A stretch of DNA of 57,191 nt, taken from assembly GCA_023248155.1 (NCBI GenBank), contig JAHFFE010000002.1, positions 197,673 through 254,863 on the forward strand, in the 5' to 3' direction. The position numbers and the translations under genes were made by a program. This DNA is from Candidatus Omnitrophota bacterium (GTDB lineage Bacteria > Omnitrophota > Gorgyraeia > 1-14-0-20-64-10). This document shows, in pieces, positions 7,064 through 56,862 of the stretch. Numbering within the stretch: the first letter of the stretch is position 1; every line of letters begins with the position of its first letter. Below the pieces are notes generated by a model. The model was not told the DNA's origin, did no database searches, and worked only from the letters and a program-made list of their open reading frames with translations.

Positions 7064-7076
7064 ACCCGGAGAGCGC

Positions 7077-7844: not shown

Positions 7845-7846
7845 CG

Positions 7847-8734: not shown

Positions 8735-8812
8735 CCGTTTACCGAAAAAGGCCCATCTGCTCTCCCGCCACAACTATATGTAGGGGTTTTTATTTTAGGT
8801 TACCCCATGATA

Positions 8813-8840
8813 TTGATCTTAAGCACAACTACGGTATAAT
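8813..8840 (+). promoter_or_regulatory. putative sigma70-type promoter of smc
   Basis: TTGATC, a 16-nt spacer, then TATAAT about 33 nt upstream of the smc GTG, in an AT-rich spacer. Confidence 0.35.
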
Positions 8841-8872
8841 GAATCTAACTTTGGGAGAGAAGATAAAATCCT

Positions 8873-33800: not shown

Positions 33801-34110
33801 GAAGGCTGTTCGCGATGAGTTTGCCGGCAAACTGGGTGGCGACCGGTTCGCTCCGGAATTAATTACCGAAACTATTGCGTGGCAGAAAATTGGATTGGTC
33901 TTGAAAGATGAAACGCTGGATGAACTCCCATTAAATCCAAACGCACTCCCTATCAGGGACAGTTCCGCTGATAAAATCAATGAGCTGGACCCCGTAGAAT
34001 TGTTGCTGGAGATTTTTAAATCCCATTTGCCGTCCGATTCCGTCCATATGGGTGAAATGCTGTTGACCGATCAATCGGGCCAAACCTATCTGGTTTTACT
34101 TTCCGCATGA
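27865..34110 (+). CDS. giant exported protein P1 (2,081 aa), AGxEE-delimited family, no recognisable catalytic domain
   Basis: Uninterrupted 6.2-kb ORF. Signal peptide ...LPPQSAWA|LRAVS and leader ending in SGLEE (27979-27993). A Pro/Glu/Val linker lies around 32290-32590. AGLEE (33625-33639) precedes a 156-aa terminal module. Confidence 0.8.
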   Translation: MYRFFAGLIILSLILPPQSAWALRAVSAKESAGLKQLASGLEERIGSPDSDATDAELLRQLDSHPQTDSAGHPYMKTLTDFHSAVAEPLLKRNSGLTDLDRDRLIKTVLPGFRGEIRLFDLSFLVVPVRLNTDGSIDIARQVLEQAPADLLINLFTSYDTAALLRWAEINLKQVTPSPAIGRLERFVAGGADRQAKKKKTSRPSEPKSRPADTLPAAEQLTTDLFLGDGVDLADTLSSATLELGLQALLRDSDLPEPPPAAAAEPALPPPVPGTVISSSGQLKTEMARRVRDLHAGIIPDNMVVMTGNGFDQDQIKISVGALPGAPIQTEVLILPGLSQPGVFLPDPRTGSASSLPYRIVWDPKPVLEALRKNVVLEEMRGMMRGDIQRAQDSMPWLNRLLDTAERLLADQGEEARIQNARAAQPKIDQLLKVVSEKEEEFYRLYGRLSSVLIELKEQADENGEIPSELAQARLQELATLFSAYPRAEYGILDIVRTLPQQDAVSLRDIENALSGTKVFLQRNHKQEISGQLPAEIILNFYHDAKRIANRRYLQQLKLRFQAAGEDPSDSDREAVSQFALAVLSEETGHLISNWISSSQDRAGSPAHPLPVSVLGVGFLNAQNQMRFIPGGLVEYDIPAQREFHWSADRVLPSYQAGDRIVLMLPSHTGGLTQNQFHAFFEGWFYLMNENPEIPEILLAIAEEDGSIRLLRPRIPERGKEAWATLARISNEINACYQTSAEWISRMKSSGSNAWLVNNMRAAGSLLSVAQKAQSSDMSGREWWIRRFRVSELFLAEVSSLFGPDAAEAVREQWKADPRHAKTLEDLRDRLNLPDIEQKRPREVAAIRQRVSYIGRTPEDLGYVFAPLIDLAVAVVEERQGVDLLNTPWMFEEVPLFPNEPKPEQKKKDWFAETWALWKKEDRFRKNPRFGKAEDAEPFARTWVAERVAKAVDGKDPEFKWIDFSKALEAHRKQEARRREEMRQRVEQMKSAAVTAASPESTPAQQTETLEQWGVLSAELTSSERAEVEPALAPAAQRLTRPHGAWALAGWALNHGLFEPELPVSKLLTRLASQFPTGSKIRDHVLMRRNIADFNEKEAERKSRDGSSSASVVPAKNQVRVPSETLADLLLLAEQQLTDLDRLLQPFPEQQAVIREQRHWVRNLWTVEEVARLGRSGVAVDAGSIRITFGYLDRFSADLEPDLLEAVHRLSGRSVRRWVDLDQKRIHAAVSESMAAGDMQAAYADLLALDQTMAADAQMLRQQGFTQGASVLETARVSLAMALAATEGIQKSEALASRVTADSGTAVHAELEVNQRLRIQAGLGWISRLNEARRRLLDRFSGEVERTARDRMASVNSLSFEQAEALNRSIQEGMASLSEFSDLAGRRTALSELRQQVRRRALASPQQPPAKAARFILAQDAFQTALIQDKDVRAWLRSVAEGDSPKNTGVLLPRVTRQRAKGSGITQEFYTAVENLMNPSAPEAVTPETIVEPETPPESSAISTESAAIVSEPEPEPPVVIVAPVVPEISSAAVEPVVVQELVPEPVVTSEPESPPVVIVSAPIVAVPVSTAVLPASETRWKSQEVTLLPDNYVRITTADPTDLVQMEFGGREWLGVKTYPVERINVVTSKHLIPVSGNELAAAALATGDWRQAASLLGREEKHQKAHEGEWVNNSVLVYAGVDDRFGIENEIYFLSPEDLQRMREDLTVITGSRKTGALGKQRFFEARAVRLTVRFNSEDRVGSVIPVTVFNSRQQYGSPVIGTADSLGPLPQLPKTVSSQMVSASSPVSVSAAAVVSLSPTKQKQLSRAEQIAENNNRLEQSRDPQEVAQVLLSDARFSPAIDENFRVPSEDGAGNLRSWLESVRDHKTDVNLARQLQRTRAAVDSVEGNNRQLFYQAFDSMLPFALQEAGASAAENTSAGLEEKTMPVAQFEEEYGKLLAGLNAEHLADLKHAGADSVIVIPLTGQLPLYVQGSDLLKAVRDEFAGKLGGDRFAPELITETIAWQKIGLVLKDETLDELPLNPNALPIRDSSADKINELDPVELLLEIFKSHLPSDSVHMGEMLLTDQSGQTYLVLLSA

Positions 34111-37100: not shown

Positions 37101-38735
37101 ATTGTTCCCATGAGTTTGCTGTTTGATGCTTCAGAGCAGGTTTCGCTGGATGATACCCAGGAGTGGGTTTTGCGGAGTGTCGGTGATTTATGGAGAGGGG
37201 TTCCATTGGTTTCCAACAGAGACGGTTCGGGCTATCCTATCGTTGGTAATCCCAAATTTTCTGCTCGTCGGGCATTAGATCAAGTAGAACCGGCTCTTCA
37301 AGAACTGCGCGAAATGGCTGGACGATCGGTTCCTCCGGAAATTACGGTCATCGCGCGAATGGCCAATTCCAATGGATTGGCCGTTCTTTATGAAGGGAAA
37401 AATGGTTCATGGAAAAGAGGATATATTGATATTCGCGAGGTTAAGCCAACCGGCGCAAGTCCTGAACAGCGTCGCCAGTGGATGAATCAAGCCATAGACC
37501 GCAAAATCCACGTTACGCTCAGAGCAATCAAAACCCCAGAATCTTCCACCAAGGTATATTTTTCCTGGCCGGACCCTGAGCGGGATTTGCACGATGATTT
37601 TGGCGCCGGGATACTTGGCGCCGGCCAGGAAGAAGCGTATGCCTATATGGGTCGCTTTATGGATAAAGATCCTTTGGTGCGCCGTGCCGCGCGCAATGAA
37701 TTGTTGAGACGGGGTGACGCCGCCATACCGATTGTCATCGAACTGTTTGGATTGATAAGTAATTCGCGTATTGAAATGGTTCAAACCGTTCGCGTGCTGG
37801 CCGCCGAAAATCCTTCATTTATTTCTCATGTCATAGAGCCGATCCGCCGGCATCTGGATGGAGATCCTGAATGGGGAAGTTATACTCCTTTGCGTAACGC
37901 ATTAATGACGCTCTCTGCGCTGAGTCCGGAGCAGGCTTCTGACGCGATTCCGTTGCTGGAGCGGTTGTTATCGAGAGAAGAACGCAACCGTGTTATAGGA
38001 TTCGATCCCGACTTTAGCAATCAAGGACATACCTGGTCGGTCTGGATATTTCCCTATGCGTTTCAGGCAATTCGCCAACTTTCTTCCAGTCGATATAATG
38101 AAATGCTTGCCCAATGGACTGTTTATAAAAATTCTGGGCCGGAAATTTACAGATTCTTGGTGAATTCTATTCTTGAAAATCTTGAACGGATCGATCAGGA
38201 AAGAGGCATTCCGCACGCCGATGCGTGGGCTTCCACGGAACCGTTGATTGAGGCGGCTGTTCAGCCGGTGCATCAGCTGGCCGAGCAGGAAAAGCCGCTG
38301 ATTGTACTGGTTAGATCCGATATGGTGCGCGGCGATCGGGAGGATATTCCTTGGGAACAAATTTCCAGACAGTTGTCGGAATTAACCGGCTATCCGTCGA
38401 TTCAGGTCGATGATTCTTCTTCATCTCGAGTGTTGGGATATCAGAGAAGCGGAAATACAATCATTCATCTGGTTCCGGAAGATTTTCCTGCAGGGTATGA
38501 GCGTGTTATGCTCAACACGGTCCGCGTGAAATTAGGCACGAATAAGGATGTTGAGAGGGACATGTTTAGTATTGAGCTGCATGCGTTACCGGGTGTCATT
38601 ACCGGTGCGTTGGCGCACTGGCAACAGTATCAAAACGAAGCACAAATTCCTGTTTTTAACGCAATTCCATATATGAATTTGAACCTGCTTTCCGCGGCCG
38701 ATGTCTGGCAGATTCTCGCCGATCAGTTTGCGTAA
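34107..38735 (+). CDS. giant exported protein P2 (1,542 aa): WD40-like propeller + S1/OB-like repeats + HEAT-like region, AGxEE-delimited family
   Basis: An ATGA overlap joins it to the P1 stop. Signal peptide ...NSIPAYA|LRVE with SGLEE at 34236-34250. WD-type blades are visible (e.g. GHDGNVKAWDL, GDKRGILHMWNI). About six S1-like modules follow, with AG[LQ]EE at 35220, 36315 and 37620. Confidence 0.8.
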   Translation: MRKISVLLLVAFLANSIPAYALRVEQPEHPASQFTLARRLNDSSGLEEVKPLWTTDLGKNRIWQTSLLPGAQRRIAAITTTFLHIGDLQESPVPALNLKTVSLQLKSSESYRGMVVGPVTDSGNQFLAMGSTSGRVVVRDLNSEDAPTVVLGDTRSFQASGSVAIDPDGKTVFVTGINSRVHAWNMETQTAVPNHPTASFFEPDSNEAKFIQDSDKRLTALTGKSQIQIWDSRDQTGWRWRPSKLGDLSVSQFSRTGKLIAVAQNNVIHLFPTDDRDRVRTLKEARMGKEITSLAFSPDSEYLIAGDKRGILHMWNIASSRATESNAQIQAHEGPISSLFFYTDKLSGRTALVSSGHDGNVKAWDLAALISAGLEEDLPDELVRATFSGERVPVRVLDLARDRPFFNAVYTAPDEQVKGFVPIARLFHDPGERMRVNQKWDRLMANGDEPIMARVDLQGGELHFYPDLELNALDSALNRLLTDVEKMVGASPLGLPAQVVKRVTGGKGAEVLYRLEDGSGRGGRGYLTVAGDYSNWLQQQIGHEIRVTPVGVDRDRSERQVIFRPAGLPLNKGALLEQKLLERSVPSDEIESFLDRQLLQDRELPKLLIPIYEHSRSRVWRNMTRSHRLAVLRWLAGRSDSADADLAGWLFHMFARASKDPMHGRTIQAWALRGMAGAARDDAQTETARQSVEAWFQRTPLPEPKHTAILDPVVYELFGWPQDAYALSLDVQARFSAGQEENTAAWDALQDKINKETPIKVRIGEVLHASKSVAIRYSHDGEDLPGVMPFPAIENLPSSYLADLFLLQKGQEIDVLPKQIIIDDLNRKQFTAFVGIAEFDFLGQRLQAIREIQRAAASGVEIEMELLGVVNKERGVVAFKYQSSAGDVVFKTYLSRFFSTGVTGNYPVHTVNSWVAYHTGKSKRVKIIPTEFQKGGSYPQVYFKVNLSNEELNQEIWHGRAELKQKFDQGHTVDFGVEWFSHNSVQVFYIGEQGWARTIVPMSLLFDASEQVSLDDTQEWVLRSVGDLWRGVPLVSNRDGSGYPIVGNPKFSARRALDQVEPALQELREMAGRSVPPEITVIARMANSNGLAVLYEGKNGSWKRGYIDIREVKPTGASPEQRRQWMNQAIDRKIHVTLRAIKTPESSTKVYFSWPDPERDLHDDFGAGILGAGQEEAYAYMGRFMDKDPLVRRAARNELLRRGDAAIPIVIELFGLISNSRIEMVQTVRVLAAENPSFISHVIEPIRRHLDGDPEWGSYTPLRNALMTLSALSPEQASDAIPLLERLLSREERNRVIGFDPDFSNQGHTWSVWIFPYAFQAIRQLSSSRYNEMLAQWTVYKNSGPEIYRFLVNSILENLERIDQERGIPHADAWASTEPLIEAAVQPVHQLAEQEKPLIVLVRSDMVRGDREDIPWEQISRQLSELTGYPSIQVDDSSSSRVLGYQRSGNTIIHLVPEDFPAGYERVMLNTVRVKLGTNKDVERDMFSIELHALPGVITGALAHWQQYQNEAQIPVFNAIPYMNLNLLSAADVWQILADQFA

Positions 38736-48333: not shown

Positions 48334-49676
48334 AAATTCATGTTTTAAGTTTGGGTTGCGCCCGCGCGCTGGTCGATTCGGAAGGATTGGCCGGCCTGCT
48401 GAAAGAAGCGGGGCACTCGCTCAGCCATGAACCGCAGTCGGCCGATTGCGTCGTCGTAAATACCTGCTCATTCATCCGCGAAGCCGAAGAAGAATCGGTC
48501 GCGACGATCCTCGATTTAGCCGAACTTAAAAAGACCGGAAAAATCCGCCGCCTTTATGTGGCCGGATGCCTTCCGCAAAAACGCCGCAATGAGAAAGAAG
48601 ATATGCTCTCGCTGCTGCCTGAAGTAGATGGCTTTCTGGGCCCCGGTGATCTCTCAAAACTGCCGATGCTGATCGAGCGGCAGGAATCGGGCAAGCCCGA
48701 CCGTTTTTTTGTGACGTCGCCGGTCCCGACCTTATTATTCGAGTCGACGGCGCCGCGCCAGCGGTTGACGCCCAAACATTTCGCTTATGTGAAAGTCTCT
48801 GAAGGCTGCGACCATGCCTGCACCTTCTGTTCCATTCCGCAGTTCCGCGGCGCGCACCGTTCACGGTCCATCGAAGATATTTCGGCCGAGGTTCGCCAGC
48901 TGGTTTCCGAAGGGGTAAAAGAATTCAACCTGATCGGGCAGGACAGCTCCTATTACGGCGCCGATATTTACGGCAAGCCGTGCCTGCCGAAATTGCTGCG
49001 CGCGCTTTCTGAGATTCCGGACGTGCGATGGATCCGTATTTTATACGCGCACCCGGCGCATGTGACCGACGATCTGATCGCCGCGATTCGCGACTGCAAG
49101 CCGGTCGTTAAATACATCGACATTCCGTTGCAGCATATCAACGACCGGTTGCTGCGCGCGATGCGCCGCGAAACCGACGGCGATTACATCCGCCGCCTGG
49201 TTCGCAAATTCCGCGAGCAGGTTCCCGGCATGGTGATCCGCAGTACGTTCATCGTCGGGTTCCCCGGGGAGACCGATGCCGATGCCGACGAGCTCGAGGC
49301 ATTTCTCGGCGAGGCCCGTTTCGAGAGGGTCGGCATGTTCCCGTTTTCACCGGAACCGAAAACACCGTCCGAGAAAATGGCGGAACAGGTTCCCGACGAC
49401 GTAAAGAAAAAACGGCTCGACCAGTTAATGCGCCGCCAGCAGGAGATTTCGTACAGCATTAATCAGGGCTGGATCGGCCGCGAGATGGAAGTGCTTATCG
49501 AGGAGCCCGATTCCGAAGACAAAACTCTTTTTATGGGCCGCAGCTATGCCGATGCGCCCGAGGTGGATGGACAGGTGTTCGTGAAATCACCGGCGCCGCT
49601 TGCGGTGGGCGAACTGGTCCGCGTGAAGATCACCGATGCGTATGAATACGATCTGTTCGGCGAGGTGATTCCGTAA
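48330..49676 (+). CDS. rimO: ribosomal protein S12 methylthiotransferase RimO (MiaB-family radical SAM)
   Basis: MTTase N-domain (LSLGCARALVDSE...NTCSFI), radical-SAM motif CDHACTFC and a C-terminal TRAM domain. Confidence 0.75.
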   Translation: MKIHVLSLGCARALVDSEGLAGLLKEAGHSLSHEPQSADCVVVNTCSFIREAEEESVATILDLAELKKTGKIRRLYVAGCLPQKRRNEKEDMLSLLPEVDGFLGPGDLSKLPMLIERQESGKPDRFFVTSPVPTLLFESTAPRQRLTPKHFAYVKVSEGCDHACTFCSIPQFRGAHRSRSIEDISAEVRQLVSEGVKEFNLIGQDSSYYGADIYGKPCLPKLLRALSEIPDVRWIRILYAHPAHVTDDLIAAIRDCKPVVKYIDIPLQHINDRLLRAMRRETDGDYIRRLVRKFREQVPGMVIRSTFIVGFPGETDADADELEAFLGEARFERVGMFPFSPEPKTPSEKMAEQVPDDVKKKRLDQLMRRQQEISYSINQGWIGREMEVLIEEPDSEDKTLFMGRSYADAPEVDGQVFVKSPAPLAVGELVRVKITDAYEYDLFGEVIP

Positions 49677-50251
49677 TGAATCTGCCGAACCAATTAACAC
49701 TGCTGCGCATCGTCCTCAGTTTTGTATTGATCGGCTGCATGCTGATGCCCGGCATTGGTTTTAAGACGGCGGCGGTGGTTGTTTTCGCGCTGGCGGCGTT
49801 GACAGATCTTTTAGACGGGAAATTGGCGCGCGAAAAAGGGCTGATCACCGATTTTGGAATTTTAATGGATCCGATCGCCGATAAAGTGCTGGTGCTCGGA
49901 TCGTTTATGGCGCTGATCCAGCTGGATATTGTTCCGGCCTGGATGGTGGTGCTGATTGCCATGCGCGAATTTTTGCTGACCGGCATCCGTCTGGTGGCGT
50001 TGAACCGCGGACAGGTTCTGGCGGCCGAGCGTTCCGGTAAGAATAAAACCGTGATGCAGATGGTGACGATCGCGCTGGCATTGATCTATTTGGCGCTGCG
50101 TGAAACAGGGTGGGGCGTTTCATCAGGTGCTGAGTCGATCCGGATGATTCGATCGGGGCTCGATTTATTTGTCTGGCTGACGATGATCTTAACCATCACC
50201 AGCGGCATCAGCTTCTTCTGGAATAACCGGAAAGTGATTCTCTCATTCTGA
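49676..50251 (+). CDS. pgsA: CDP-diacylglycerol--glycerol-3-phosphate 3-phosphatidyltransferase
   Basis: CDP-alcohol phosphatidyltransferase motif DLLDGKLAR...GILMDPIADK. Confidence 0.9.
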   Translation: MNLPNQLTLLRIVLSFVLIGCMLMPGIGFKTAAVVVFALAALTDLLDGKLAREKGLITDFGILMDPIADKVLVLGSFMALIQLDIVPAWMVVLIAMREFLLTGIRLVALNRGQVLAAERSGKNKTVMQMVTIALALIYLALRETGWGVSSGAESIRMIRSGLDLFVWLTMILTITSGISFFWNNRKVILSF

Positions 50252-50255
50252 AAAA

Positions 50256-50321
50256 ATGTCATTCCGAGATGGTACTTGCTCGGAATCTTAGATCCTGAGC
50301 AGAAACAATCTCAGGATGACA
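50256..50321 (+). repeat. two-hairpin repeat family C, copy 2
   Basis: ATGTCAT-[TCCGAG..CTCGGA]-ATCTTAG-[ATCCTGAG..CTCAGGAT]-GACA, located in the pgsA-pgpA spacer. Confidence 0.6.
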
Positions 50322-50341
50322 GCGTGGGGTGCCTGATCTCC

Positions 50342-50782
50342 ATGATTACAAAGATGATTGCCACATTCTTCGGGATTGGCTATTTTCCGGCTGCGCCGGG
50401 AACCGCCGCATCGGCGGTGGCGGCGTTACTGGCCTGGTTTGTTTTTGGGCTGCCATTGAATCCTCTAATCTTTCCTTTCTTTTTGGCCGCCATCGGAATT
50501 TGGAGTTCCGATTGTTTTTCGAAACAGATCAACCAAAAAGATCCGCACTGCATTGTGATCGACGAAGTCGCCGGCATGGCGCTGGCTGTTGCCGGACTGC
50601 CGCGCAGCTGGCAGGTTTACTTGGCTGCGTTTGTGCTGTTCCGTCTGCTCGATATTGTCAAGCCGGGCCCGATCCGGAGAGCGGAACAGCTTCCCGGAGG
50701 GTGGGGGATCATGACAGATGATCTTTTGGCCGGCCTGGCGGCGAACATGCTGATCCGCGGATTTTTGTTGTTCGCCCATTGA
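50342..50782 (+). CDS. pgpA: phosphatidylglycerophosphatase A
   Basis: FFGIGYFPAAPGTAAS...IVIDEVAGM...FRLLDIVKPGPI. I chose ATG 50342 as the start because the track's 50276 runs through repeat C. Confidence 0.8.
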   Translation: MITKMIATFFGIGYFPAAPGTAASAVAALLAWFVFGLPLNPLIFPFFLAAIGIWSSDCFSKQINQKDPHCIVIDEVAGMALAVAGLPRSWQVYLAAFVLFRLLDIVKPGPIRRAEQLPGGWGIMTDDLLAGLAANMLIRGFLLFAH

Positions 50783-50788
50783 AAAACT

Positions 50789-53700
50789 ATGATTTATATG
50801 CTAAAATTATTTAACAATAACATGTCTCGCCAGAATTTTTCTTTTGCCCGCTTTTTTGCGGCTTTATTAGCCGTTGCGCAGATCTTTTGCGTAACCGTGA
50901 CGCCTTCCTACGCGCTGCGCGCTGTTTCTCCGTCGGAATCTCGCCCTGATTTGCAAACCCGCCTCTCGGGGCAGGAAGAGCCAGTCAGGGTTTTTGACGC
51001 GTTTAGGCGGTCGGAGGTCAATCCGGAAATCGGGGCCCGCGTCGCAAATTTTCTGATTGGAACGGGCGCGCAAATGCGTGTAGCGCAGGTCGAGATGAAT
51101 CAAACTCTGCCCATTTATTCCAATCCGCACGACGAATATTATTTGATTCTGTCCGGCCGGGGGCTTCTTCAGACGGGCACTCTCGCCGGCAAGGTGGGCT
51201 CTGGAGATTTAATCCGGATTCCGGCCGGATCACCCCATACTATTACGGCTGTTGGCGAGGAATCTCTGACGCTGGCCTTTTTCTATCGGGGTTCGTACCA
51301 GAGAGCCTTGAGGCCGGAAGTTCCGGTTCTTTCCGGCGAAACGCCCGCCGGCCGCGGCCGCTATTTTCTGGAAATCGCCAAGCTCAATGGAGACAGCGAG
51401 AGTGAACTGTTTGTTGGAGAACGGCTCTCGATCCGTTTGTATCAAAAGCGGGGTCGCGTTAACCGTTCTTTTACTCCAGACCGCCAAACCCTCTTGTATG
51501 TAACGACAGGCGAAATGGAACTTGCATTCAATGCAAGTGGTCAACAGTTTTCGTTGAGAAAAGAAAGCGGAATAGTTATTCCGGCCGGCATGATTGTTCA
51601 TTTATCCGGTAAGCATAGTGCTCGCTTTCTTTTAATTTCTGCGTTGGATCGTTTGACGGTTGGAAATTATCGCGAACTTGCCGTGGTGTTGCAGCGTTAT
51701 CACGGCCTGCCGCTTGAAAATCCGCCGGCCAATTCTCCAGCGTATGAGCGCCTGCGCAGTTTGGATAATTATTCCGGCACCAATGGAATTTATCAGTTAA
51801 CAGCCGATCTTCAGGCGGCCAGGGATGCCGGATTATTGCGAATCACAAATCTTTTAGAACAGGACTTGAATCCCCAAAATTTCTACGATGGTTTGCCGGC
51901 ATCTATAAAACGCGATAGAGAATTTCCCGCTCCGAAACTGTCGTGGAAAGACTATTTCAACATTCAGGTTCTTTTGCGGAACTCTCCTGAGCTCTATCGA
52001 GACCCGGAGGGACTTCGAAAACTTGCGGATCAGCAAGAAATAGCACCGGCCGCACTTTGGCATACATTTCATTCCGAGTTTGGTGAACAACTTGGCTGGG
52101 GAGCTATCGCTCAATTCAGAACCGTTCGTCAAGCGGCGGCCACCGCCGGCATGGAAGAGGCGAAGGTGGAAGATTTCTTCGACGAGATTCCGGCGGCCGA
52201 TGCGAACGAGTTCAAGGTGGCAGTGATGGTGCCGGTCAGTGATGCCACGATTGATCGGCTCAGCAAAGAGGGGTATCACATCTACCGCATAAAACCTCAG
52301 AAGGAACCGCTGGGAATTATCGGCGCTGAGAGAACGCGCGCGCTCATTCAAAAAATAAACCCAGATTACCTGATGATCTTTGTGAATGATTCTGTCGATG
52401 AAGAACTTTTGAAGCCGGAGGTGACGCCGAATCTGAAAGGGATTGCCCACATGGGCCTTGGTTTTGGCAATATCACAAAAGCTGCGCGCAAACTTGCCGC
52501 TGAGCGGAAAATCCAGCTTTCCTATGCCGGTGATCCGAGGGTCAGCCGCAATGTGCTTTATAATGCCACTGCCGAGATGGCCGAAACACTGTTGCTGACC
52601 CGCTGGTATGATTTGCTCCGGAATGTCCATCCAAAGATTGGGGTTTTTTCTGAAGGCCAAATCTTGGGAGTTCAACTCCAGGCCTACATTGCCTCTGCCG
52701 GAGGAAATGTTTCCGAGTTAGAGCGGCGAGAGATTCAAGTAGCCGATTTGTTGTGGGCGCAGATGTTTCGGCAGATGAAGCGAGTCGATGCGGCGGTTGA
52801 GTTAGCTCGACAGGGCAAATTTCTCGGAGCAGGGAACGGGGCTGATCGCACGGTCCGAAATTATCAGCTGACAAGACAGCGGGAATTGGGAAAGGCGCCC
52901 AGCCTGGGAATGGTGGGATCTCTGACGATGATTCGCCGCTGGGCCTCGCTTGCCGCCACGCATGGTCTGGATGATCTCTATTATGCTGATCCCAGCGGCG
53001 ACCGGTTCCCGGAACGGGAGGCGTTTCAAATGGGTTTGTCCGTCGGAACTGTGGAGGAAGTGGCGCTGAGTTCCGATTTTCTGTTGCTGGCTCCGGGCAC
53101 GGGCACTGTTTTAACGGCGGATCTGCAGGTGGCTCAAGCGCTGTCCAGAAAGAATCCCGTTTTAAGAGTGGATCCTGCCCAATGGATCTGGACCGGCCCT
53201 GATCTGCAGCTGTTTCTGCCGGACCGGTCGTTGCAAAATCAAACCATCGGTTTTTACGGTTTGGGAACCATCGGCGGAACAGCGGCCTCATTTTTAAAAC
53301 GATTCGGCGCGAATATCATCGCCGTGGTTCGTCATCCCGACGATTACAGGTCCATTGGAGAACGGCTGAATGTCTCGTTTGTTTCTCCGGAACAGATCTG
53401 GCGGAAGGCGCGGCTGGTGTTGTTGTCTCTGCCTGCGGATGCGGGGCAGGTGGTGACGCCTGAGATTTTAGATGACCCAACGACAATCACGGAATTAATC
53501 GGCAACATCGGCCGTGGAGACGCGGTTGCGGGTACTCTTTCAGAAGAAGAAAGCTTCGTGCAGGCGTTGCTTAGAACCGGCAGGGCGTACTCCACGGATG
53601 TTCTTCCGAATGAAAAACTGGAATGGCAGAAACAGCCGTTGAGGGCGCTCGTAGAAAGCGGGCAGGCCATTGTGAGCTCTCATATTGCCAGCAACGCCGA

Positions 53701-54331
53701 GAACCCGCTGACAAAAATCAGCGTGCGCGGCTTGATGGAAGGCACCGCTGTGAACAACCTGCTGGTGATGCGGCATAATCAGTTGCAGCCTGGTGACCCC
53801 AGACCATTACCCAATCCGATTCCTGCGCCGGCCGGCCAGGAGGAAGTTGCTGCTGCGGAACAGCGGGTAGCGGCTGTTATCGATCAGCTTGTCAGAAAAT
53901 CGCAATTTTCCGTTAAGCAAAAGGTGGTAGCGATCGGTCCCAGCGTCTATCAATCAAAAGACTACGACTTCCTGCCGGCTTTTGTTGAAACATATTTTGG
54001 CCCTGTTCAAGAACGAATATTTTTTGATCCGGTGAATCCGCAGAACAGAGAATCTGTCTGGGATACTCAATTTGATTGGAATGCCGGTGACGGGGAATAT
54101 GGAAAACGGGTTGATTTGGTGAGCTATCTGGGGTCTAGCGATGAACAATCTGATTTTAATCGGTGGGCGCAAACTCACTTGCAGGTCAATTTTTCCACAT
54201 TGCATTGGCAAAAAGAGCCGGCGAAATTTTTGCATGAGCTGCTCAGGGAGCTGGCCCTTCCTTTCAACATCCTTTCTGTTAATGAGGATCAACAACTGCA
54301 GGCCGACCTGGAGCTTCTCGTTTCCTCTTAA
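50789..54331 (+). CDS. giant exported protein P3 (1,180 aa): tandem cupins + D-2-hydroxyacid-dehydrogenase-like NAD domain, AGxEE-delimited family
   Basis: Signal peptide ...VTVTPSYA|LRAVS with SGQEE at 50966-50980. Cupin motifs (HDEYYLILSGRG...IRIPAGSPH; LLYVTTGEMEL...VIPAGMIVH). AGMEE is at 52145. The Rossmann region has GLGTIGGTAASFLKRFGANIIAVVRHPD plus NIGRG, DVLPNE and SSH. AGQEE is at 53831. Met12 (50822) is an alternative start. Confidence 0.8.
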   Translation: MIYMLKLFNNNMSRQNFSFARFFAALLAVAQIFCVTVTPSYALRAVSPSESRPDLQTRLSGQEEPVRVFDAFRRSEVNPEIGARVANFLIGTGAQMRVAQVEMNQTLPIYSNPHDEYYLILSGRGLLQTGTLAGKVGSGDLIRIPAGSPHTITAVGEESLTLAFFYRGSYQRALRPEVPVLSGETPAGRGRYFLEIAKLNGDSESELFVGERLSIRLYQKRGRVNRSFTPDRQTLLYVTTGEMELAFNASGQQFSLRKESGIVIPAGMIVHLSGKHSARFLLISALDRLTVGNYRELAVVLQRYHGLPLENPPANSPAYERLRSLDNYSGTNGIYQLTADLQAARDAGLLRITNLLEQDLNPQNFYDGLPASIKRDREFPAPKLSWKDYFNIQVLLRNSPELYRDPEGLRKLADQQEIAPAALWHTFHSEFGEQLGWGAIAQFRTVRQAAATAGMEEAKVEDFFDEIPAADANEFKVAVMVPVSDATIDRLSKEGYHIYRIKPQKEPLGIIGAERTRALIQKINPDYLMIFVNDSVDEELLKPEVTPNLKGIAHMGLGFGNITKAARKLAAERKIQLSYAGDPRVSRNVLYNATAEMAETLLLTRWYDLLRNVHPKIGVFSEGQILGVQLQAYIASAGGNVSELERREIQVADLLWAQMFRQMKRVDAAVELARQGKFLGAGNGADRTVRNYQLTRQRELGKAPSLGMVGSLTMIRRWASLAATHGLDDLYYADPSGDRFPEREAFQMGLSVGTVEEVALSSDFLLLAPGTGTVLTADLQVAQALSRKNPVLRVDPAQWIWTGPDLQLFLPDRSLQNQTIGFYGLGTIGGTAASFLKRFGANIIAVVRHPDDYRSIGERLNVSFVSPEQIWRKARLVLLSLPADAGQVVTPEILDDPTTITELIGNIGRGDAVAGTLSEEESFVQALLRTGRAYSTDVLPNEKLEWQKQPLRALVESGQAIVSSHIASNAENPLTKISVRGLMEGTAVNNLLVMRHNQLQPGDPRPLPNPIPAPAGQEEVAAAEQRVAAVIDQLVRKSQFSVKQKVVAIGPSVYQSKDYDFLPAFVETYFGPVQERIFFDPVNPQNRESVWDTQFDWNAGDGEYGKRVDLVSYLGSSDEQSDFNRWAQTHLQVNFSTLHWQKEPAKFLHELLRELALPFNILSVNEDQQLQADLELLVSS

Positions 54332-54476: not shown

Positions 54477-55613
54477 ATGAAACTGTCCATGTTCCTAACG
54501 CGAGTAATGGTGATTGGAGCGGCCAGTTTTCTTGCGGTCTCCTTCGGGTATGCTGACGGTGATGGAGTTAACACGGCGACGGGTCCTGTCCTTGTGGAGA
54601 GTGCCGTGATTGTGGGAAATGCGTCCTCCGGCGACTCGGTTGCCACCGTTAACTTCTTAATAGCGCTTACTAATGCAGTTGAAGCAACGACAACGGTGGG
54701 TTCCACTGGTATCACGCCTCCGCCAATGCCTTCGCCGCCTCCCATAGAGGGAGAGGAGCCAATCCCCACGGGGCCTCCTATTCCATTGGATGAGGATGGG
54801 ATTCCTATCCTGCCGACATCGCCGCCCTTTCCAACGGAAGATGCTCCTGTTCCGGTGGATGGAAACGGCAATCCGATTTTCGTGCCATTCCCATTACCGA
54901 TACCCTCTAGTGGACCCTCGGTTCCCGGTCCCGGAGAGCCCAACCCAGGACCTCTTGATCCGCCAGAAATGCCTTTACCGGATGTGGATCCCAACGATAC
55001 ACCTTCTCCCCCTCCGGTAGAAGAGATTCCGCCGCTGGGTGTTCCGCCGGAACCGGAGCCGGCCGTGATTACAGCGGTTCCGACCGTGCCGACTCTGGAA
55101 GCAATCATCGTCTCTACGTCATTCGCGTCGCTGGCGGTAGATGGAGAAGGTAATCCACTAGGGCCGGTTGATTCGGAGGAAGTAGAGGAAGCGATCGACA
55201 TTGCAGAAGAGCTGGAGAATGAGCCCGAGGATACGACAGATCCGAATGATTCGCTGGGTGAAGGCTGCGATGATCTCGAGGATGAGAATTGTATAGAAAC
55301 AGACGGTCCACTCGATCCTATACCAGATCCGGGTCCGCTGGTTACAAATCCAGAGGAGGATGCAACTCCGATTGATTCGCTGATCGAGACAGATGAAGAA
55401 GCGGTAGAGGAAACGGCCTCCGTGCCCGGGCCGGATGAGGAGGAAGCGATCGATCCCAATGATTCGCTCGGTGAAGGTCAAGGTGAAGAGGATGTTGATG
55501 TGGATGGTTCTGAGGAGATCATTATCAATCTGGCAGACGACAATGATGCGCCCCCGCCGGATTCTTTGATTAGTGTCGAAGAAGAAATGAAGGAAGCGGC
55601 AGGGATTAAATGA
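54477..55613 (+). CDS. exported Pro-rich, highly acidic protein P4 (378 aa)
   Basis: AGAGGTG lies upstream of the ATG. Signal peptide MKLSMFLTRVMVIGAASFLAVSFGYA. Long PxP/acidic low-complexity sequence. The C-terminus contains NLADDNDAPPPD. Confidence 0.7.
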   Translation: MKLSMFLTRVMVIGAASFLAVSFGYADGDGVNTATGPVLVESAVIVGNASSGDSVATVNFLIALTNAVEATTTVGSTGITPPPMPSPPPIEGEEPIPTGPPIPLDEDGIPILPTSPPFPTEDAPVPVDGNGNPIFVPFPLPIPSSGPSVPGPGEPNPGPLDPPEMPLPDVDPNDTPSPPPVEEIPPLGVPPEPEPAVITAVPTVPTLEAIIVSTSFASLAVDGEGNPLGPVDSEEVEEAIDIAEELENEPEDTTDPNDSLGEGCDDLEDENCIETDGPLDPIPDPGPLVTNPEEDATPIDSLIETDEEAVEETASVPGPDEEEAIDPNDSLGEGQGEEDVDVDGSEEIIINLADDNDAPPPDSLISVEEEMKEAAGIK

Positions 55614-56257
55614 AACTGTCCATGTTCCTAACGCGGGTGATGGTGATTGGAGCGGCCAGTCTTCTTGCGGTCTCCTCCGGGTATGCTGACGGTAGTGATG
55701 GGTTTACGACAGTCTGCACTGAAATGGTTGAAAACGCGGTGACGGATGGGACGTCTGTCAAGATTCCCTCATCGATGTTGGCTGCCGCTGCCGCAATGGA
55801 TGCTGCGCCTGTTGGTTTTAAACCTTCTGTACAACCTGCAGGTCCCACTGCATTAGGAGTTGCTTTGGGGATTTTCATTGCTAGCCCGAAGCCGCCGCCC
55901 GCGCCGCCATTTGTACCCCCGACGGCACCTCCGCCGGTGGTACCTCCGGTGGTGCTTCCGACGGCACCTCCATCGGTATCGTTGCCCCCGCCAATGCCTT
56001 TGCCGATTGTTGCGACACCTCTTCCGTTTTTTGCTCCATCGGCAACCTCTGTTCCACCGGAACCTCCTGAACCTCCGAAACCCATCCCGGTTATTTCTCT
56101 GGATGACGATCCGACGCTTCCCATGTTTCCTCCGCCGGCGCCGGATGAGCTTCCAGCGGAAGAAGCACCTCCGCCGCCGGATGAAATCATGCTTCCTGCT
56201 CCTGACGGGTCGATCATGAATCTCGGAGACGACGATGATGCGCCCCCACCGGACTAG
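55610..56257 (+). CDS. exported Pro-rich protein P5 (215 aa), tandem paralogue of P4
   Basis: An ATGA overlap joins it to the P4 stop. The signal peptide is nearly identical (MKLSMFLTRVMVIGAASLLAVSSGYA). The C-terminus is NLGDDDDAPPPD. Confidence 0.7.
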   Translation: MKLSMFLTRVMVIGAASLLAVSSGYADGSDGFTTVCTEMVENAVTDGTSVKIPSSMLAAAAAMDAAPVGFKPSVQPAGPTALGVALGIFIASPKPPPAPPFVPPTAPPPVVPPVVLPTAPPSVSLPPPMPLPIVATPLPFFAPSATSVPPEPPEPPKPIPVISLDDDPTLPMFPPPAPDELPAEEAPPPPDEIMLPAPDGSIMNLGDDDDAPPPD

Positions 56258-56277: not shown

Positions 56278-56862
56278 TTATTCAGAAATAGAAGGCGTAA
56301 CGGTTTTCCCGAGCAGGAATTGCGCCAGGGGCCGGTAGATCGGTCCCTGGCGCGTTAATTCGGAATGAAACAGTGTGACCGATTCAATCGGCCACGGACT
56401 TTTTCCGCGAAATGAAATTCCCTCGATCTGTTTGACCAGCCGTTTGTGTCCGCGCATCGAACGGACCCGCCCGATTGTCAAATGTGCCTTGAACGGTTTC
56501 TCTTCCATCGGAAAACCGAGCGGGCCGCATGCTTTGTCGACGGCCAGCGCCAGGTTTTTCAGATCTTCTTTTCCATGGCTCATGCCGACCCAAATTACGC
56601 GCGCGACCTCGATGGTGGGGAAGCCGCCCGCACCGCGCAGCGCAATTTTAAACGGGTCCACCGTCGAGAGCCGGGAAATCATCGCCTGTTTGATCTCACC
56701 GGCCTGTTCCTTCGTTGTTTCGCCCAGGAATTTTAGAGTCAGGTGCAAGTTTTCGGGGGCTGTCCAGGTGATGTCGGCGCCGCTGGTTTGAAGGTGTTTC
56801 TGCAGTTCACCGATCTGTTCGCGCAGTTCCTGCGTAATCGCAATTCCCAAGAATGCTCTCAT
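56278..56862 (-). CDS. thpR: RNA 2',3'-cyclic phosphodiesterase (2H family, ThpR/LigT)
   Basis: Two H-x-T-x motifs: HLTLKF and HLTIGR. Length is 194 aa. Confidence 0.85.
   Translation of the reverse strand: MRAFLGIAITQELREQIGELQKHLQTSGADITWTAPENLHLTLKFLGETTKEQAGEIKQAMISRLSTVDPFKIALRGAGGFPTIEVARVIWVGMSHGKEDLKNLALAVDKACGPLGFPMEEKPFKAHLTIGRVRSMRGHKRLVKQIEGISFRGKSPWPIESVTLFHSELTRQGPIYRPLAQFLLGKTVTPSISE

What the first reader, a model, noticed from the sequence alone, without database searches (positions are those of the whole stretch)
50789..54331. P3: an exported protein carrying two cupins and an apparently intact NAD-dependent D-2-hydroxyacid-dehydrogenase-like domain
P3 starts 7 nt after pgpA. 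After the shared leader come two cupin barrels (~51041-51292 and ~51401-51643). After AGMEE (52145) comes a large alpha/beta region whose C-part carries the hallmarks of D-isomer-specific 2-hydroxyacid dehydrogenases. These are the dinucleotide fold GLGTIGGTAASFLKRFGANIIAVVRHPD (about nt 53250) and plausible counterparts of the catalytic Arg/Glu/His (IGNIGRGDAV, TDVLPNEKLE, IVSSHIASN). After AGQEE (53831) comes a 161-aa terminal module. NAD(P)-dependent enzymes are not expected outside the cytoplasm. Either the cargo is delivered somewhere that has nucleotides (another cell or a compartment), or the fold has been co-opted for binding, or the leader is not a classical export signal.
Basis: partly seen in the sequence, partly recalled or inferred. 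Interest (0 to 1): 0.65.

Follow-up and report, generated by a model that had tools for sequence, protein, structure and literature searches.

The report
Signal-peptide protein carrying intact dehydrogenase cassette
An uncultured Omnitrophota bacterium encodes a cysteine-free, signal-peptide-bearing protein built from separate cassettes, one of which is an apparently working NAD(P)-dependent dehydrogenase, so it is a small, tractable test case for why these bacteria put cytoplasm-type enzymes behind export signals.

Summary
P3 (window 50789-54331, 1180 aa) has these parts:
- a Sec-type leader
- a bicupin
- a helical module
- a 557-aa D-2-hydroxyacid-dehydrogenase (2-HADH) module
- a 161-aa tail

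The pentapeptides SGQEE, AGMEE and AGQEE sit at three of the joints; the bicupin/helical joint has none.

The dehydrogenase module looks functional. GxGxxG, the Arg-Glu-His triad and the DV motif are invariant across 14 homologous modules that are 26-57% identical. AlphaFold gives pLDDT 88.5 and a full two-domain 2-HADH fold. The closest solved relatives are glyoxylate/hydroxypyruvate reductases.

The module differs from known enzymes by a roughly 200-residue insert, which is a degenerate duplicate of half the Rossmann fold. It also has a Val-Arg pair where NAD-specific enzymes have an acidic residue, which points to NADP(H).

P3 is not unique. About 40 proteins in this 1.9-Mb genome share the leader, the [AST]-G-x-E-E punctuation and a 15-fold cysteine depletion. 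The positional orthologue in another assembly has three extra cassettes, each bounded by the motif.

Topology rules and cysteine exclusion favour real export. Where NAD(P)H would come from, and whether the chain is cut, remain untested.

The general kind (Omnitrophota multi-enzyme signal-peptide proteins) is already in preprints. The motif and the insert-bearing dehydrogenase are not.

The parts
50789..54331 (+). P3 open reading frame (1180 aa, stop included). The probable true start is M12 at 50822.
   Evidence: The orthologue P0002 starts at the equivalent of M12. The stretch 50789-50821 is AT-rich.
50822..50917 (+). Sec-type signal peptide, aa 12-43: MSRQNFSFAR (n-region, +2), FFAALLAVAQIFCVTV (h-region), TPSYA (c-region, AXA-type site SYA|LR). 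It contains the protein's only cysteine (C34).
   Evidence: Read directly from the sequence. The leader is conserved in about 38 own-genome paralogues and in P0002, P0006, P0008 and P0011. SignalP was not available.
50918..50980 (+). Post-leader segment LRAVSPSESRPDLQTRL-SGQEE (aa 44-64). It holds the family-wide 'LR' and the first [AST]-G-x-E-E motif.
50981..51649 (+). Bicupin module (aa 65-287). Cupin 1 has Y110/N112 in place of HxH, while E116 and H150 are kept. Cupin 2 lacks His ligands in the whole subfamily.
   Evidence: Pfam Cupin_2; TIGR03214; alignment with P0002, P0018, P0036, P0037 and others.
51650..52144 (+). Helical module of unknown function (aa 288-452). It occurs on its own behind a TGLEE motif in other proteins.
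   Evidence: BLAST mapping to P0016 (aa 581-744), P0027 (aa 74-212) and P0024. No Pfam match.
52145..52159 (+). Delimiter AGMEE (aa 453-457).
   Evidence: Homology to G010 and P0002 starts just after it.
52160..53830 (+). 2-HADH module (aa 458-1014), a single compact fold. The substrate-binding domain is about aa 474-602. The pseudo-Rossmann insert is about aa 603-800. The NAD(P)-binding domain plus C-terminal helix is about aa 801-1000. A disordered Pro-rich linker covers aa 1000-1014.
   Evidence: Pfam; alignment A1 invariants; AlphaFold pLDDT 88.5 and pTM 0.90; Foldseek against PDB, TMt 0.74-0.80 to PTDH and GRHPR; profile against PDB, E 1.3e-47 to 6bii in two stretches.
52595..53188 (+). 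Insert of about 200 aa within the 2-HADH module. It has helices carrying the conserved ADLLWAQ..RQ..R.D and F-x-G-A-G-N-G...HQL motifs. These are followed by a beta-alpha-beta unit that is a degenerate copy of the first half of the Rossmann fold, with GxGxxG lost (LGMVGSLTMI).
   Evidence: Absent from canonical 2-HADHs in the alignment. DSSP of the model. hhalign of the insert profile against the NAD-domain profile gives Prob 77.6% and E 1.9e-5.
53258..53332 (+). Dinucleotide-binding signature G824-x-G826-x-x-G829, then beta2 ending in V847-R848-H849 with no acidic residue.
   Evidence: The Gly residues are invariant in A1. V847/R848 align with A175/R176 of the NADP-accepting PTDH E175A/A176R variant (4e5m) and with A-R of Pyrococcus glyoxylate reductase (6bii).
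53513..53728 (+). Catalytic residues R909, D937/V938, E942 and H965, plus the invariant R980.
   Evidence: All are invariant in A1. They align with the Arg/Glu/His of PTDH and GRHPR.
53831..53845 (+). Delimiter AGQEE (aa 1015-1019).
53846..54328 (+). C-terminal alpha/beta domain (aa 1020-1180) ending ...DLELLVSS. In 7 of the 10 aligned relatives (P0002, P0021, P0025, P0026, P0028, P0029, P0070) it is visibly the last module of a longer protein; P0023, P0030 and P0033 are short records, and G006/G013 and the own-genome C15 ORF were not checked.
   Evidence: Hits to the C-termini of the aligned P-set proteins, plus hits in G006, G013 and own C15. Alignment A2. AlphaFold pLDDT 88.5. No PDB fold match, best E 0.046.
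49676..50782 (+). Upstream context: pgsA (49676-50251) and pgpA (50276-50782).
   Evidence: Pfam CDP-OH_P_transf and PgpA. The same order PgsA-PgpA-P0002 is seen in L026.
56278..56862 (-). Downstream context: an ORF in the position where G004 and G011 have their pgpA-adjacent convergent ORF and where L026 has a gene called LigT. Not scanned or aligned here.
   Evidence: ORF listed. Pfam LigT call on the L026 neighbour only. Unannotated ORFs in L028 and L030.

Best explanation
**Shown.**
- P3 is a member of an Omnitrophota family of cysteine-depleted modular proteins. A conserved Sec-type leader is followed by interchangeable cassettes, with the pentapeptide [A/S/T]-G-[L/Q/A/M]-E-E at most joints.
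- In P3 the cassettes are:
  1. a bicupin whose first metal site is partly eroded;
  2. a helical module;
  3. a 557-aa dehydrogenase cassette;
  4. a conserved C-terminal domain whose fold matches no solved PDB structure.
- The dehydrogenase cassette is a complete two-domain D-2-hydroxyacid dehydrogenase.
- Its closest solved relatives are glyoxylate/hydroxypyruvate reductases and phosphite dehydrogenase.
- Its dinucleotide-binding glycines and its Arg-Glu-His catalytic residues are under strong conservation.
- It has a lineage-specific insert that is a degenerate duplicate of half the Rossmann fold.

**Inferred.**
- The cassette is a working 2-oxoacid/2-hydroxyacid oxidoreductase that prefers NADP(H), because it has Val-Arg where NAD enzymes have an acidic residue.
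- The leader takes the chain through the Sec pathway, unfolded and without cofactor.
- The enzyme therefore works outside the producer's cytoplasm. The most plausible site is the contact zone with a host or prey cell, or inside that cell or its lysate, the only nearby source of NAD(P)H for a host-dependent nanobacterium.

**Open.** Whether the chain is cut at the motifs into free enzymes. I put this at about one in three.
For: **Domain identity**
- Pfam 2-Hacid_dh_C scores 53.4 bits against a cut-off of 25.1.
- The profile of 14 modules hits Pyrococcus GRHPR 6bii at E 1.3e-47. It matches both the substrate-binding domain (chain residues 2-116) and the NAD domain (143-322).
- AlphaFold gives pLDDT 88.5 and pTM 0.90. 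Foldseek TMt is 0.74-0.80 to whole 2-HADH chains.

**Intactness**
- Only 19 of 557 columns are invariant across modules that are 26-57% identical.
- These 19 include G824, G826, G829, R909, G910, D937, V938, E942 and H965.
- Had invariant columns fallen at random, all six core positions being invariant would have a chance of about 1.6e-9.

**Insert**
- It is absent from canonical enzymes.
- hhalign of the insert against the NAD domain gives E 1.9e-5.

**NADP inference**
- V847-R848 align with the engineered NADP-accepting PTDH E175A/A176R variant and with the A-R pair of Pyrococcus glyoxylate reductase 6bii.

**Family membership**
- The motif occurs 164 times in 51 ORFs. The AGQEE DNA pattern occurs 53 times against 1 in the control.
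- About 38 proteins share the leader.
- Homology to G010 covers exactly aa 451-1023, between two motifs.
- The positional orthologue P0002 (PgsA-PgpA-P0002) has three extra segments: aa 69-384, 764-993 and 1553-1994. Each is bounded by a motif on both sides.

**Export**
- The n-region carries +2 and the 20 residues after the h-region carry a net -1, which predicts N-in/C-out.
- There is an SYA|LR AXA-type site.
- Cysteine is 0.07% in the family against 1.03% in other long ORFs. Mature P3 has none in about 1140 residues, with P about 7e-6.
- This matches the cysteine exclusion known for exported proteins (PMC2823432).
- Eleven of the 15 homologous modules counted also have no Cys, whereas seven of the eight canonical 2-HADHs counted, including both own-genome copies, have 1-8.

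**Not a recently captured housekeeping gene**
- The genome also has two canonical 2-HADHs, at 205 and 195 bits.

**Print context**
- Omnitrophota 'multi-enzyme metabolic' long proteins with signal peptides are reported in bioRxiv 10.64898/2026.06.07.730766.
Against: - No experiment or proteomics shows export, cleavage or activity.
- Sec export delivers unfolded apo-protein, and no source of NAD(P)H is known in a bacterial periplasm.
- Host delivery is pure inference from the reported lifestyle of the phylum.
- The module scores only 51-53 bits against Pfam and is highly diverged, so its substrate cannot be named.
- The cupin beside it has lost metal ligands, so some cassettes in this very protein are decaying.
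- Pfam on nine sister proteins found no extracytoplasmic-type domain next to the module; the SLT-like look of the P0009 tail did not score.
- The NADP inference rests on two aligned residues.
- The duplication inference has only 77.6% hhalign probability.
- Earlier in-scan checks priced proteolytic cutting of such chains low.
Confidence: 0.55

Rival explanations
1. Cytoplasm-facing membrane-tethered enzyme. The hydrophobic N-terminus would be an uncleaved anchor, or would fail to start translocation. The cassettes would stay on the cytoplasmic side, where NAD(P)H, ATP and SAM are available, and there would be no paradox.
For: - Every identifiable enzyme found next to this module in sister proteins needs a cytoplasmic cofactor or is a cytoplasm-type enzyme. 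Examples are fucose pyrophosphorylase, SAM methyltransferases, glycerate kinase (DUF4147+MOFRL), PCMT and HATPase.
- Nielsen & Lui read the TM-only class of Omnitrophota long proteins as cytoplasm-facing.
Against: - The positive-inside rule predicts N-in/C-out: +2 before the helix and a net -1 after it.
- A canonical small-x-small site (SYA|LR) and a helix-breaking Pro precede it.
- The 15-fold cysteine depletion, and zero Cys in mature P3, would be unexplained for cytoplasmic enzymes.
- The genome's own cytoplasmic 2-HADHs do contain Cys.
Confidence: 0.15
2. Pseudoenzyme or binding module. The 2-HADH fold would be retained only as a scaffold that binds a ligand (a nucleotide, a 2-oxoacid or a host molecule), without turnover.
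For: - The module is very diverged, at 51-53 bits against 195-205 bits for the canonical paralogues.
- It carries a pseudo-Rossmann insert that has already lost its glycine motif.
- The adjacent cupin has lost two metal ligands.
- CtBP-type 2-HADH relatives that act as sensors appear among the PDB hits.
Against: - All six core catalytic and cofactor residues, plus the DV motif and a further Arg (R980), are invariant across modules that are 26-57% identical.
- A pure binding role would not need the Arg-Glu-His triad.
- Distant members sit next to glycerate kinase modules (P0017; seen by eye in G034 and G032). This is a metabolically sensible partner for a hydroxypyruvate reductase.
Confidence: 0.1
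3. Export in the folded, cofactor-loaded state. P3 would be exported after binding NAD(P) in the cytoplasm, by Tat or another folded-protein route. The precedent is Zymomonas glucose-fructose oxidoreductase, which keeps tightly bound NADP in the periplasm.
For: - The genome encodes TatC at 185.6 bits.
- A few family leaders contain RRF(L).
- GFOR is a cited Tat substrate (PMC7317946, found; the detail about its cofactor is from my own knowledge).
Against: - The P3 leader has no twin arginine (SRQNFSFARFF). Most family leaders have a single Arg.
- Family members reach thousands of residues, which is implausible for Tat.
- Cysteine exclusion fits unfolded export better.
Confidence: 0.05
4. One uncut multidomain protein. 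The pentapeptides would be linker or docking marks rather than cleavage sites. The dehydrogenase would work as part of a 120-kDa assembly together with the bicupin and the tail.
For: - No protease domain is present in P3.
- Nothing is conserved around the motif apart from small residues at -1.
- The motif also occurs immediately after the signal peptide and, in some relatives, 8-10 residues from the C-terminus. Cutting there would release only tiny peptides.
- An earlier in-scan check priced cleavage of such chains at about 12/100.
Against: - Cassettes are gained and lost exactly at the motifs between orthologues.
- The dehydrogenase cassette occurs with quite different neighbours, or nearly alone (P0006, P0007, P0008). 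Each cassette therefore seems to function on its own.
- The motif lies in a disordered Pro-rich linker, with pLDDT below 50 at module residues 543-557.
Confidence: 0.45

Closest known systems
Glyoxylate/hydroxypyruvate reductases (GRHPR; e.g. Pyrococcus 6bii, 5aov, 2dbq; human 2h1s, 2gcg) within the D-isomer-specific 2-hydroxyacid dehydrogenase superfamily
   Same: - It has the same two-domain fold: TMt 0.73-0.79 and profile E 1e-47 to 3e-39.
- GxGxxG is present.
- The catalytic Arg, Glu and His are present, followed by H-I-[GA]-S.
- A later conserved Arg is aligned.
- A basic rather than acidic residue follows beta2, as in 6bii.
   Different: - It has a 200-residue pseudo-Rossmann insert between the inter-domain helix and the NAD domain.
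- It sits inside a signal-peptide-bearing, cysteine-free modular protein.
- It has only about 15% structural-alignment identity to these enzymes.
- Substrate and activity are untested.
Phosphite dehydrogenase PtxD (4e5n, 4e5m, 6ih4)
   Same: - It is the best single-sequence hit and the top Foldseek hit.
- V847-R848 mimic the engineered NADP-accepting E175A/A176R pair.
   Different: - The profile search ranks GRHPRs well above PtxD.
- No phosphite-related context is present.
Omnitrophota 'multi-enzyme metabolic' long proteins (Nielsen & Lui 2026, bioRxiv 10.64898/2026.06.07.730766) and giant genes (West-Roberts et al. 2023, bioRxiv 10.1101/2023.11.21.568195)
   Same: - The phylum is the same: the same-family genome G010 is a Candidatus Omnitrophota MAG.
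- Unrelated cytoplasm-type enzymes are strung behind a signal peptide.
- Cleavage has been suspected but not shown.
   Different: - Those papers treat proteins of at least 10 kaa. Neither mentions a junction motif, and West-Roberts et al. state that cleavage points are unknown.
- P3 is only 1.2 kaa and has defined [AST]GxEE junctions.
- P3 has a positional orthologue that shows cassette gain or loss at those junctions.
Zymomonas mobilis glucose-fructose oxidoreductase (periplasmic enzyme with tightly bound NADP)
   Same: It is a nicotinamide-cofactor enzyme located outside the cytoplasm, which makes it the classic precedent for the paradox.
   Different: - GFOR uses a twin-arginine leader and is exported folded with its cofactor.
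- P3 has a Sec-type leader without RR.
- GFOR belongs to a different fold family (GFO/IDH/MocA).
MARTX-type and viral polyproteins (modular effectors released by cleavage at defined sites)
   Same: It has a beads-on-a-string layout, with a short conserved peptide at the module joints.
   Different: - No protease module is present in P3.
- Cleavage is not demonstrated.
- The motif is unrelated to theirs.

Membership tests
D-isomer-specific 2-hydroxyacid dehydrogenase superfamily (Pfam PF02826 + PF00389) | NAD-binding domain match above the curated cut-off | tested here: met
   PF02826 scores 53.4 bits against a cut-off of 25.1, E 2.6e-14, at aa 809-967.
D-isomer-specific 2-hydroxyacid dehydrogenase superfamily (Pfam PF02826 + PF00389) | Substrate-binding (catalytic) domain present | tested here: met
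   P3 alone is below the cut-off (PF00389 18.7 against 24.6 bits). The module profile, however, matches residues 2-116 of GRHPR 6bii at 52 bits. Sister modules P0004 and P0005 pass at 34.8 and 38.9 bits. The AlphaFold model covers whole 2-HADH chains.
D-isomer-specific 2-hydroxyacid dehydrogenase superfamily (Pfam PF02826 + PF00389) | GxGxxG dinucleotide-binding motif | tested here: met
   G824, G826 and G829 are invariant in 14 modules.
D-isomer-specific 2-hydroxyacid dehydrogenase superfamily (Pfam PF02826 + PF00389) | Catalytic Arg-Glu-His triad | tested here: met
   R909, E942 and H965 are invariant. They align to the Arg/Glu/His of PTDH and GRHPR.
D-isomer-specific 2-hydroxyacid dehydrogenase superfamily (Pfam PF02826 + PF00389) | Two-domain fold with the active site in the cleft | tested here: met
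   AlphaFold gives pLDDT 88.5 and pTM 0.90. Foldseek gives E 1e-15 and TMt 0.74-0.80. Cleft geometry could not be inspected because no coordinates were available.
D-isomer-specific 2-hydroxyacid dehydrogenase superfamily (Pfam PF02826 + PF00389) | NAD(P)H-dependent 2-oxoacid reduction | not testable with these tools
   This needs an enzyme assay.
GRHPR subfamily (glyoxylate/hydroxypyruvate reductase) | Closest relatives and subfamily-specific residues. Activity on glyoxylate or hydroxypyruvate. | tested here: inconclusive
   GRHPRs are the best profile hits. H-I-A-S and a later Arg are aligned. A glycerate-kinase module neighbours the distant member P0017 (Pfam) and is seen by eye in G034 and G032, but not in P3. 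Identity is about 15%, and no tree or assay was done.
Cupin superfamily (PF07883), metal-dependent | Cupin_2 match above the cut-off | tested here: met
   37.8 bits against a cut-off of 27.2.
Cupin superfamily (PF07883), metal-dependent | Metal ligands HxH...E...H | tested here: not met
   P3 has Y110-S-N112...E116...H150, whereas P0002 and P0018 have H-S-H-P-H-D-E. Cupin 2 lacks the His ligands altogether.
Sec-type (SPase I) signal peptide | Positive n-region, uncharged h-region of 12-20 aa, small residues at -3 and -1 | tested here: met
   MSRQNFSFAR / FFAALLAVAQIFCVTV / TPSYA|LR. This was judged by eye, because no predictor was available.
Sec-type (SPase I) signal peptide | Actual translocation and cleavage | not testable with these tools
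   This needs reporter fusions or N-terminal proteomics.
Tat signal peptide | Twin-arginine motif (S/T-R-R-x-F-L-K) | tested here: not met
   The P3 leader has S-R-Q-N-F and F-A-R-F-F only. TatC is nevertheless present in the genome.
Omnitrophota [AST]GxEE-punctuated modular proteins (unpublished; seen in this scan) | Leader with LR followed by a first motif. Internal motifs at homology boundaries. Cysteine depletion. A shared tail domain. | tested here: met
   Boundaries coincide with homology blocks to G010 and P0002. The tail is shared with at least 10 proteins.
Proteolytically processed polyprotein | Cleavage at the junction peptide by a defined protease | not testable with these tools
   There is no protease domain in P3, and no proteomic data were accessible.

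The most novel reading that the evidence does not exclude
Host-dependent Omnitrophota would export strings of complete, cysteine-free, cofactor-dependent enzymes through Sec. The strings would be released at [AST]-G-x-E-E junctions and delivered into or onto a host or prey cell. There the enzymes, including this NADP(H)-type 2-oxoacid reductase with its pseudo-Rossmann insert, would run on the host's own nucleotide pools. That would amount to metabolic effectors encoded as swappable cassettes.
Probability: 0.15. Interest if true: 0.85.

Novelty: new variant of a known kind. Interest (0 to 1): 0.5.

Why it matters
- Omnitrophota genomes devote a large share of their coding capacity to signal-peptide proteins made of cytoplasm-type enzymes. 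In this genome it is about 119,000 residues in 42 ORFs. Nobody knows where these proteins act or whether they are cut.
- P3 is an unusually small and clean example. It has one leader, four cassettes and three defined junctions.
- It carries an enzyme with a simple spectrophotometric assay whose catalytic residues are demonstrably under selection.
- Its positional orthologue shows cassette gain or loss exactly at the junctions.
- This makes three questions directly testable with standard tools: whether the leader exports, whether the motif is cut, and whether an NAD(P) enzyme works outside the cell.
- The module is also a structurally new 2-HADH variant, with an internal half-Rossmann duplication.

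Tried and rejected
- **Word-indexed homologue search.** The search with the whole protein found nothing. This was a sensitivity limit, because the exhaustive HMMER search later found 70 relatives.
- **The search for related loci.**
  - The P3 module alone found no relative in GTDB genomes.
  - The G010 module served only to name the phylum.
- **Home-made signal-peptide scan.** A scan of all six-frame ORFs, meant to test whether 'AxA-LR' is exclusive to the family, was too crude to use. It was swamped by spurious ORFs and the regex was too strict.
- **Tat hypothesis.** TatC exists, but the P3 leader lacks RR.
- **C-terminal domain.** The model is confident, but there is no significant fold match in PDB, so its function is unassigned.
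- **Operon idea.** I considered that P3 might be a conserved part of the pgsA-pgpA phospholipid operon and rejected it. In G004 and G011 no large protein follows pgpA, and G010 and G008 have other neighbours there.
- **Recent capture.** I considered that the module might be a recent capture of the genome's own serA- or ldhA-like genes and rejected it, because those score 195-205 bits and lack the insert.
- **dN/dS between P3 and P0002.** Not attempted, because at 52% amino-acid identity synonymous sites are saturated.

Full report
**1. What is in the sequence**

The frame 50789-54331 (+) is open for 1180 codons. It follows pgsA (49676-50251) and pgpA (50276-50782) in a run of housekeeping genes: PNPase, FtsK, RodZ and a RimO-like radical-SAM enzyme.

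- SGQEE is aa 60-64.
- AGMEE is aa 453-457, starting at nt 52145.
- GLGTIGG starts at nt 53258.
- AGQEE is aa 1015-1019, starting at nt 53831.
- The tail is 161 residues.

Pfam finds Cupin_2 at aa 105-162 (37.8 bits, cut-off 27.2). It finds 2-Hacid_dh_C at aa 809-967 (53.4 bits, cut-off 25.1). A sub-threshold 2-Hacid_dh catalytic-domain match lies at aa 478-580. NCBIfam's best hits are glyoxylate reductase and 2-hydroxyacid dehydrogenase models, far below equivalog cut-offs.

The probable start is M12 (nt 50822):
- The preceding 33 nt are AT-rich.
- The closest relative starts at the equivalent residue.

**2. The organism and the family**

The window lies in a 1.9-Mb, 98.5%-complete genome. 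A same-family genome (G010) is labelled 'MAG: Candidatus Omnitrophota bacterium'. One contig of the present genome is a single 45,037-codon frame.

The pentapeptide [AS]-G-[QLAM]-E-E occurs 164 times in 51 ORFs. The DNA pattern for AGQEE occurs 53 times against 1 for the reversed control.

About 38 proteins start with the same kind of leader:
- a positively charged n-region;
- a hydrophobic stretch of about 16-20 residues;
- a small-x-small site;
- 'LR';
- the first motif, 1-40 residues later.

Forty-two such ORFs total about 119,000 residues. They contain 0.07% cysteine, against 1.03% in the other long ORFs.

P3's only cysteine (C34) is inside the signal peptide. The chance of no Cys in about 1146 residues at the background rate is about 7e-6.

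P1 and P2 in the same window (27865-34110 and 34107-38735) belong to the same family.

Earlier AI notes of this scan describe the same family, and analogous families with other delimiters. I used them as leads and re-derived the points above independently.

**3. Module boundaries are real**

A whole-genome search in 40 relatives matched P3 in separate blocks:
- aa 451-1023 to a 1108-aa protein of G010 (38% identity, E 3e-76);
- aa 1013-1179 to the ends of proteins in G006 and G013;
- the cupin to small proteins.

An exhaustive HMMER search of 1.84 billion representatives gave only 70 hits.

The best hit, P0002 (2160 aa, 52% identity), lies in the same genomic position (PgsA-PgpA-P0002). It aligns to P3 in four blocks:
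- leader;
- bicupin plus helical module;
- dehydrogenase;
- tail.

Its three extra segments are each bounded by a motif on both sides:
- aa 69-384, an alpha/beta-hydrolase;
- aa 764-993;
- aa 1553-1994.

So cassettes are gained or lost exactly at the pentapeptides.

The stretch aa 288-452 of P3 is a further module. It occurs separately in P0016, P0024 and P0027.

In two sister genera, G004 and G011, pgpA is followed by a convergent ORF in the position of the L026 ligT gene, with no large protein between. G010 and G008 have other neighbours there. The P3 locus is therefore a lineage-specific insertion, not part of the phospholipid operon.

**4. The dehydrogenase cassette**

Relatives of aa 458-1014 occur in at least 20 proteins. 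All complete examples inspected, except P0005, have a hydrophobic leader. Those inspected were P0002, P0004, P0006, P0008, P0009, P0011, P0012, P0014 and P0019. Minimal forms are leader + module + tail (P0006, 752 aa; P0008, 815 aa).

An alignment of 14 modules, 26-57% identical to P3, has 19 invariant columns (A1). Among them are:
- G824, G826 and G829 (GxGxxG);
- R909 and G910;
- D937 and V938;
- E942;
- H965;
- R980.

In alignments with canonical enzymes and PDB chains, R909, E942 and H965 fall on the catalytic Arg, Glu and His.

AlphaFold on A1 gave pLDDT 88.5 and pTM 0.90. Only the Pro-rich last 15 residues are disordered. Foldseek matched whole 2-HADH chains at E about 1e-15 and TMt 0.74-0.80:
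- phosphite dehydrogenase 4e5n;
- human GRHPR 2h1s;
- Pyrococcus glyoxylate reductase 2dbq.

The A1 profile matched Pyrococcus GRHPR 6bii at E 1.3e-47, in two stretches:
- profile 17-145 to chain 2-116;
- profile 344-543 to chain 143-322.

This defines an insert of about 200 residues between the inter-domain helix and the NAD domain. The insert has its own conserved motifs (ADLLWAQ..RQ..R.D; F-x-G-A-G-N-G; HQL) and a beta-alpha-beta unit.

hhalign of the insert profile against the NAD-domain profile aligns LGMVGSLTMIRRWASLAATHGL... with IGFYGLGTIGGTAASFLKRFGA... (Prob 77.6%, E 1.9e-5). The insert is therefore most simply a degenerate duplicate of the first half of the Rossmann fold that has lost its glycine motif.

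After beta2, P3 has V847-R848 where NAD-specific enzymes have an acidic residue. These two residues align with A175-R176 of the NADP-accepting PTDH variant 4e5m and with the A-R pair of Pyrococcus glyoxylate reductase 6bii. Most sister modules also have Arg or His there. NADP(H) preference is thus inferred, not shown.

The genome has two canonical 2-HADHs (205 and 195 bits), without the insert and with cysteines.

In 300 evenly drawn Omnitrophota genomes, the insert-bearing module was found in only 6. All the other hits were ordinary enzymes of SerA size, matched on the NAD domain alone.

More distant insert-bearing members show or suggest a glycerate-kinase neighbour. In P0017 Pfam finds DUF4147+MOFRL next to the module. 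In G034 and G032 I read the same from the translations only. That fits a hydroxypyruvate-reductase ancestry, but P3 has no such neighbour.

**5. The other cassettes**

Cupin 1 keeps E116 and H150. It has Y110 and N112 where P0002 and P0018 have H-x-H. Cupin 2 lacks His ligands in the whole subfamily. The bicupin is therefore unlikely to be a standard metal-dependent enzyme in P3.

The tail (aa 1020-1180) is conserved in at least 10 other proteins. In seven of them (P0002, P0021, P0025, P0026, P0028, P0029, P0070) it is visibly the last module of a longer protein. It ends in D-L-x-L-L-[IV]-x-[AS] (A2). It models confidently (pLDDT 88.5) as an alpha/beta domain with no significant PDB match.

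**6. Is it exported, and how could an NAD(P) enzyme work there?**

Evidence for export:
- The leader has the charge distribution (+2 before the helix, net -1 after), the length and the SYA|LR site of a Sec signal peptide.
- It is conserved at the protein level, so it is translated.
- Cysteine exclusion is a known trait of exported proteins in bacteria that avoid oxidative misfolding (PMC2823432). It is extreme here.

Evidence that complicates the picture:
- The leader has no twin arginine, although TatC is present. Export in the folded, cofactor-loaded state in the manner of glucose-fructose oxidoreductase is therefore unlikely.
- Sister proteins combine the module with fucose pyrophosphorylase, SAM methyltransferases, glycerate kinase, PCMT, amylase and HATPase modules. 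The cofactor paradox therefore applies to the family as a whole.

This matches the 'multi-enzyme metabolic' signal-peptide proteins reported for Omnitrophota (bioRxiv 10.64898/2026.06.07.730766). That paper mentions neither a motif nor cleavage. West-Roberts et al. (bioRxiv 10.1101/2023.11.21.568195) suspect cleavage but state that the cut points are unknown.

My best reading is a Sec-exported cassette protein whose dehydrogenase is catalytically competent and acts where host or prey nucleotides are available. The steps after 'competent by sequence and fold' are inference.

Rivals are listed with odds: a cytoplasm-facing tether, a pseudoenzyme, Tat-type export, and an uncut multidomain protein.

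**7. Verdict**

P3 is a new variant within a kind that is already in preprints, and that this scan has met many times. Its specific value has three parts:
- the structurally novel insert-bearing 2-HADH;
- the clean orthologue comparison;
- its suitability as a small experimental test case.

Noticed in passing
window 54477-55613 (+) and 55610-56257 (+): Two paralogous, Pro-rich, very acidic ORFs (378 and 215 aa) lie directly downstream of P3. Their first roughly 28 residues are nearly identical (MKLSMFLTRVMVIGAAS[FL]LAVS[FS]GYADG). This is a different kind of signal peptide, without LR or AGxEE. Neither has a Pfam match. The P0002 locus has one 225-aa ORF in this position.
   Followed up: partly
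genome contig C9 (G000:C9:2-135112): A single open frame of 45,037 codons fills an entire 135-kb contig, and both ends are cut by the contig ends. It contains only two [AS]GxEE motifs.
   Followed up: no
L023 (G032:C19) 516-12082: In another family of the same class there are two adjacent long signal-peptide proteins. One is GlmS-like and the other is cupin + insert-bearing 2-HADH + glycerate kinase + methyltransferase. They seem to be punctuated by an 'R-D-G-G'-like peptide instead of AGxEE, and their leaders contain 'HLR'. The cupin-2-HADH pairing recurs there.
   Followed up: no
window 50783-50821: The first 11 codons of the longest P3 frame are AT-rich (aaaaactatgatttatatgctaaaattatttaacaataac), and no Shine-Dalgarno sequence is visible before either ATG. 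The real start is probably ATG at 50822.
   Followed up: partly
L028, L030 (G004, G011) versus the window: In G004 and G011 pgpA is followed by a convergent ORF resembling the L026 ligT gene. P3 plus the two Pro-rich ORFs look like a block of about 5.5 kb inserted between them in this genus.
   Followed up: partly
P0002 N-terminus (L026 1343-...): The orthologue's leader carries the 'ALR' unit twice (YALRLTSAEETPPRASALRAVSPSES), which is a 15-residue duplication relative to P3.
   Followed up: no
L021 (G010:C33) 3900-7226 (-), plus P0004, P0005 and P0011: Some relatives carry the motif 8-12 residues before the stop codon (…RAGMEEGTGRET*, …ASGLEEQLARDRAA*). Cutting there would release only a short peptide. 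This bears on what the motif does.
   Followed up: no
G000:C20:289627-290244: TatC is present in this small genome. A few family leaders contain RRF(L), for example ERRFLFSRILSALL and FFRRFLSALL, which resembles a Tat motif. Most leaders, including P3's, do not.
   Followed up: partly
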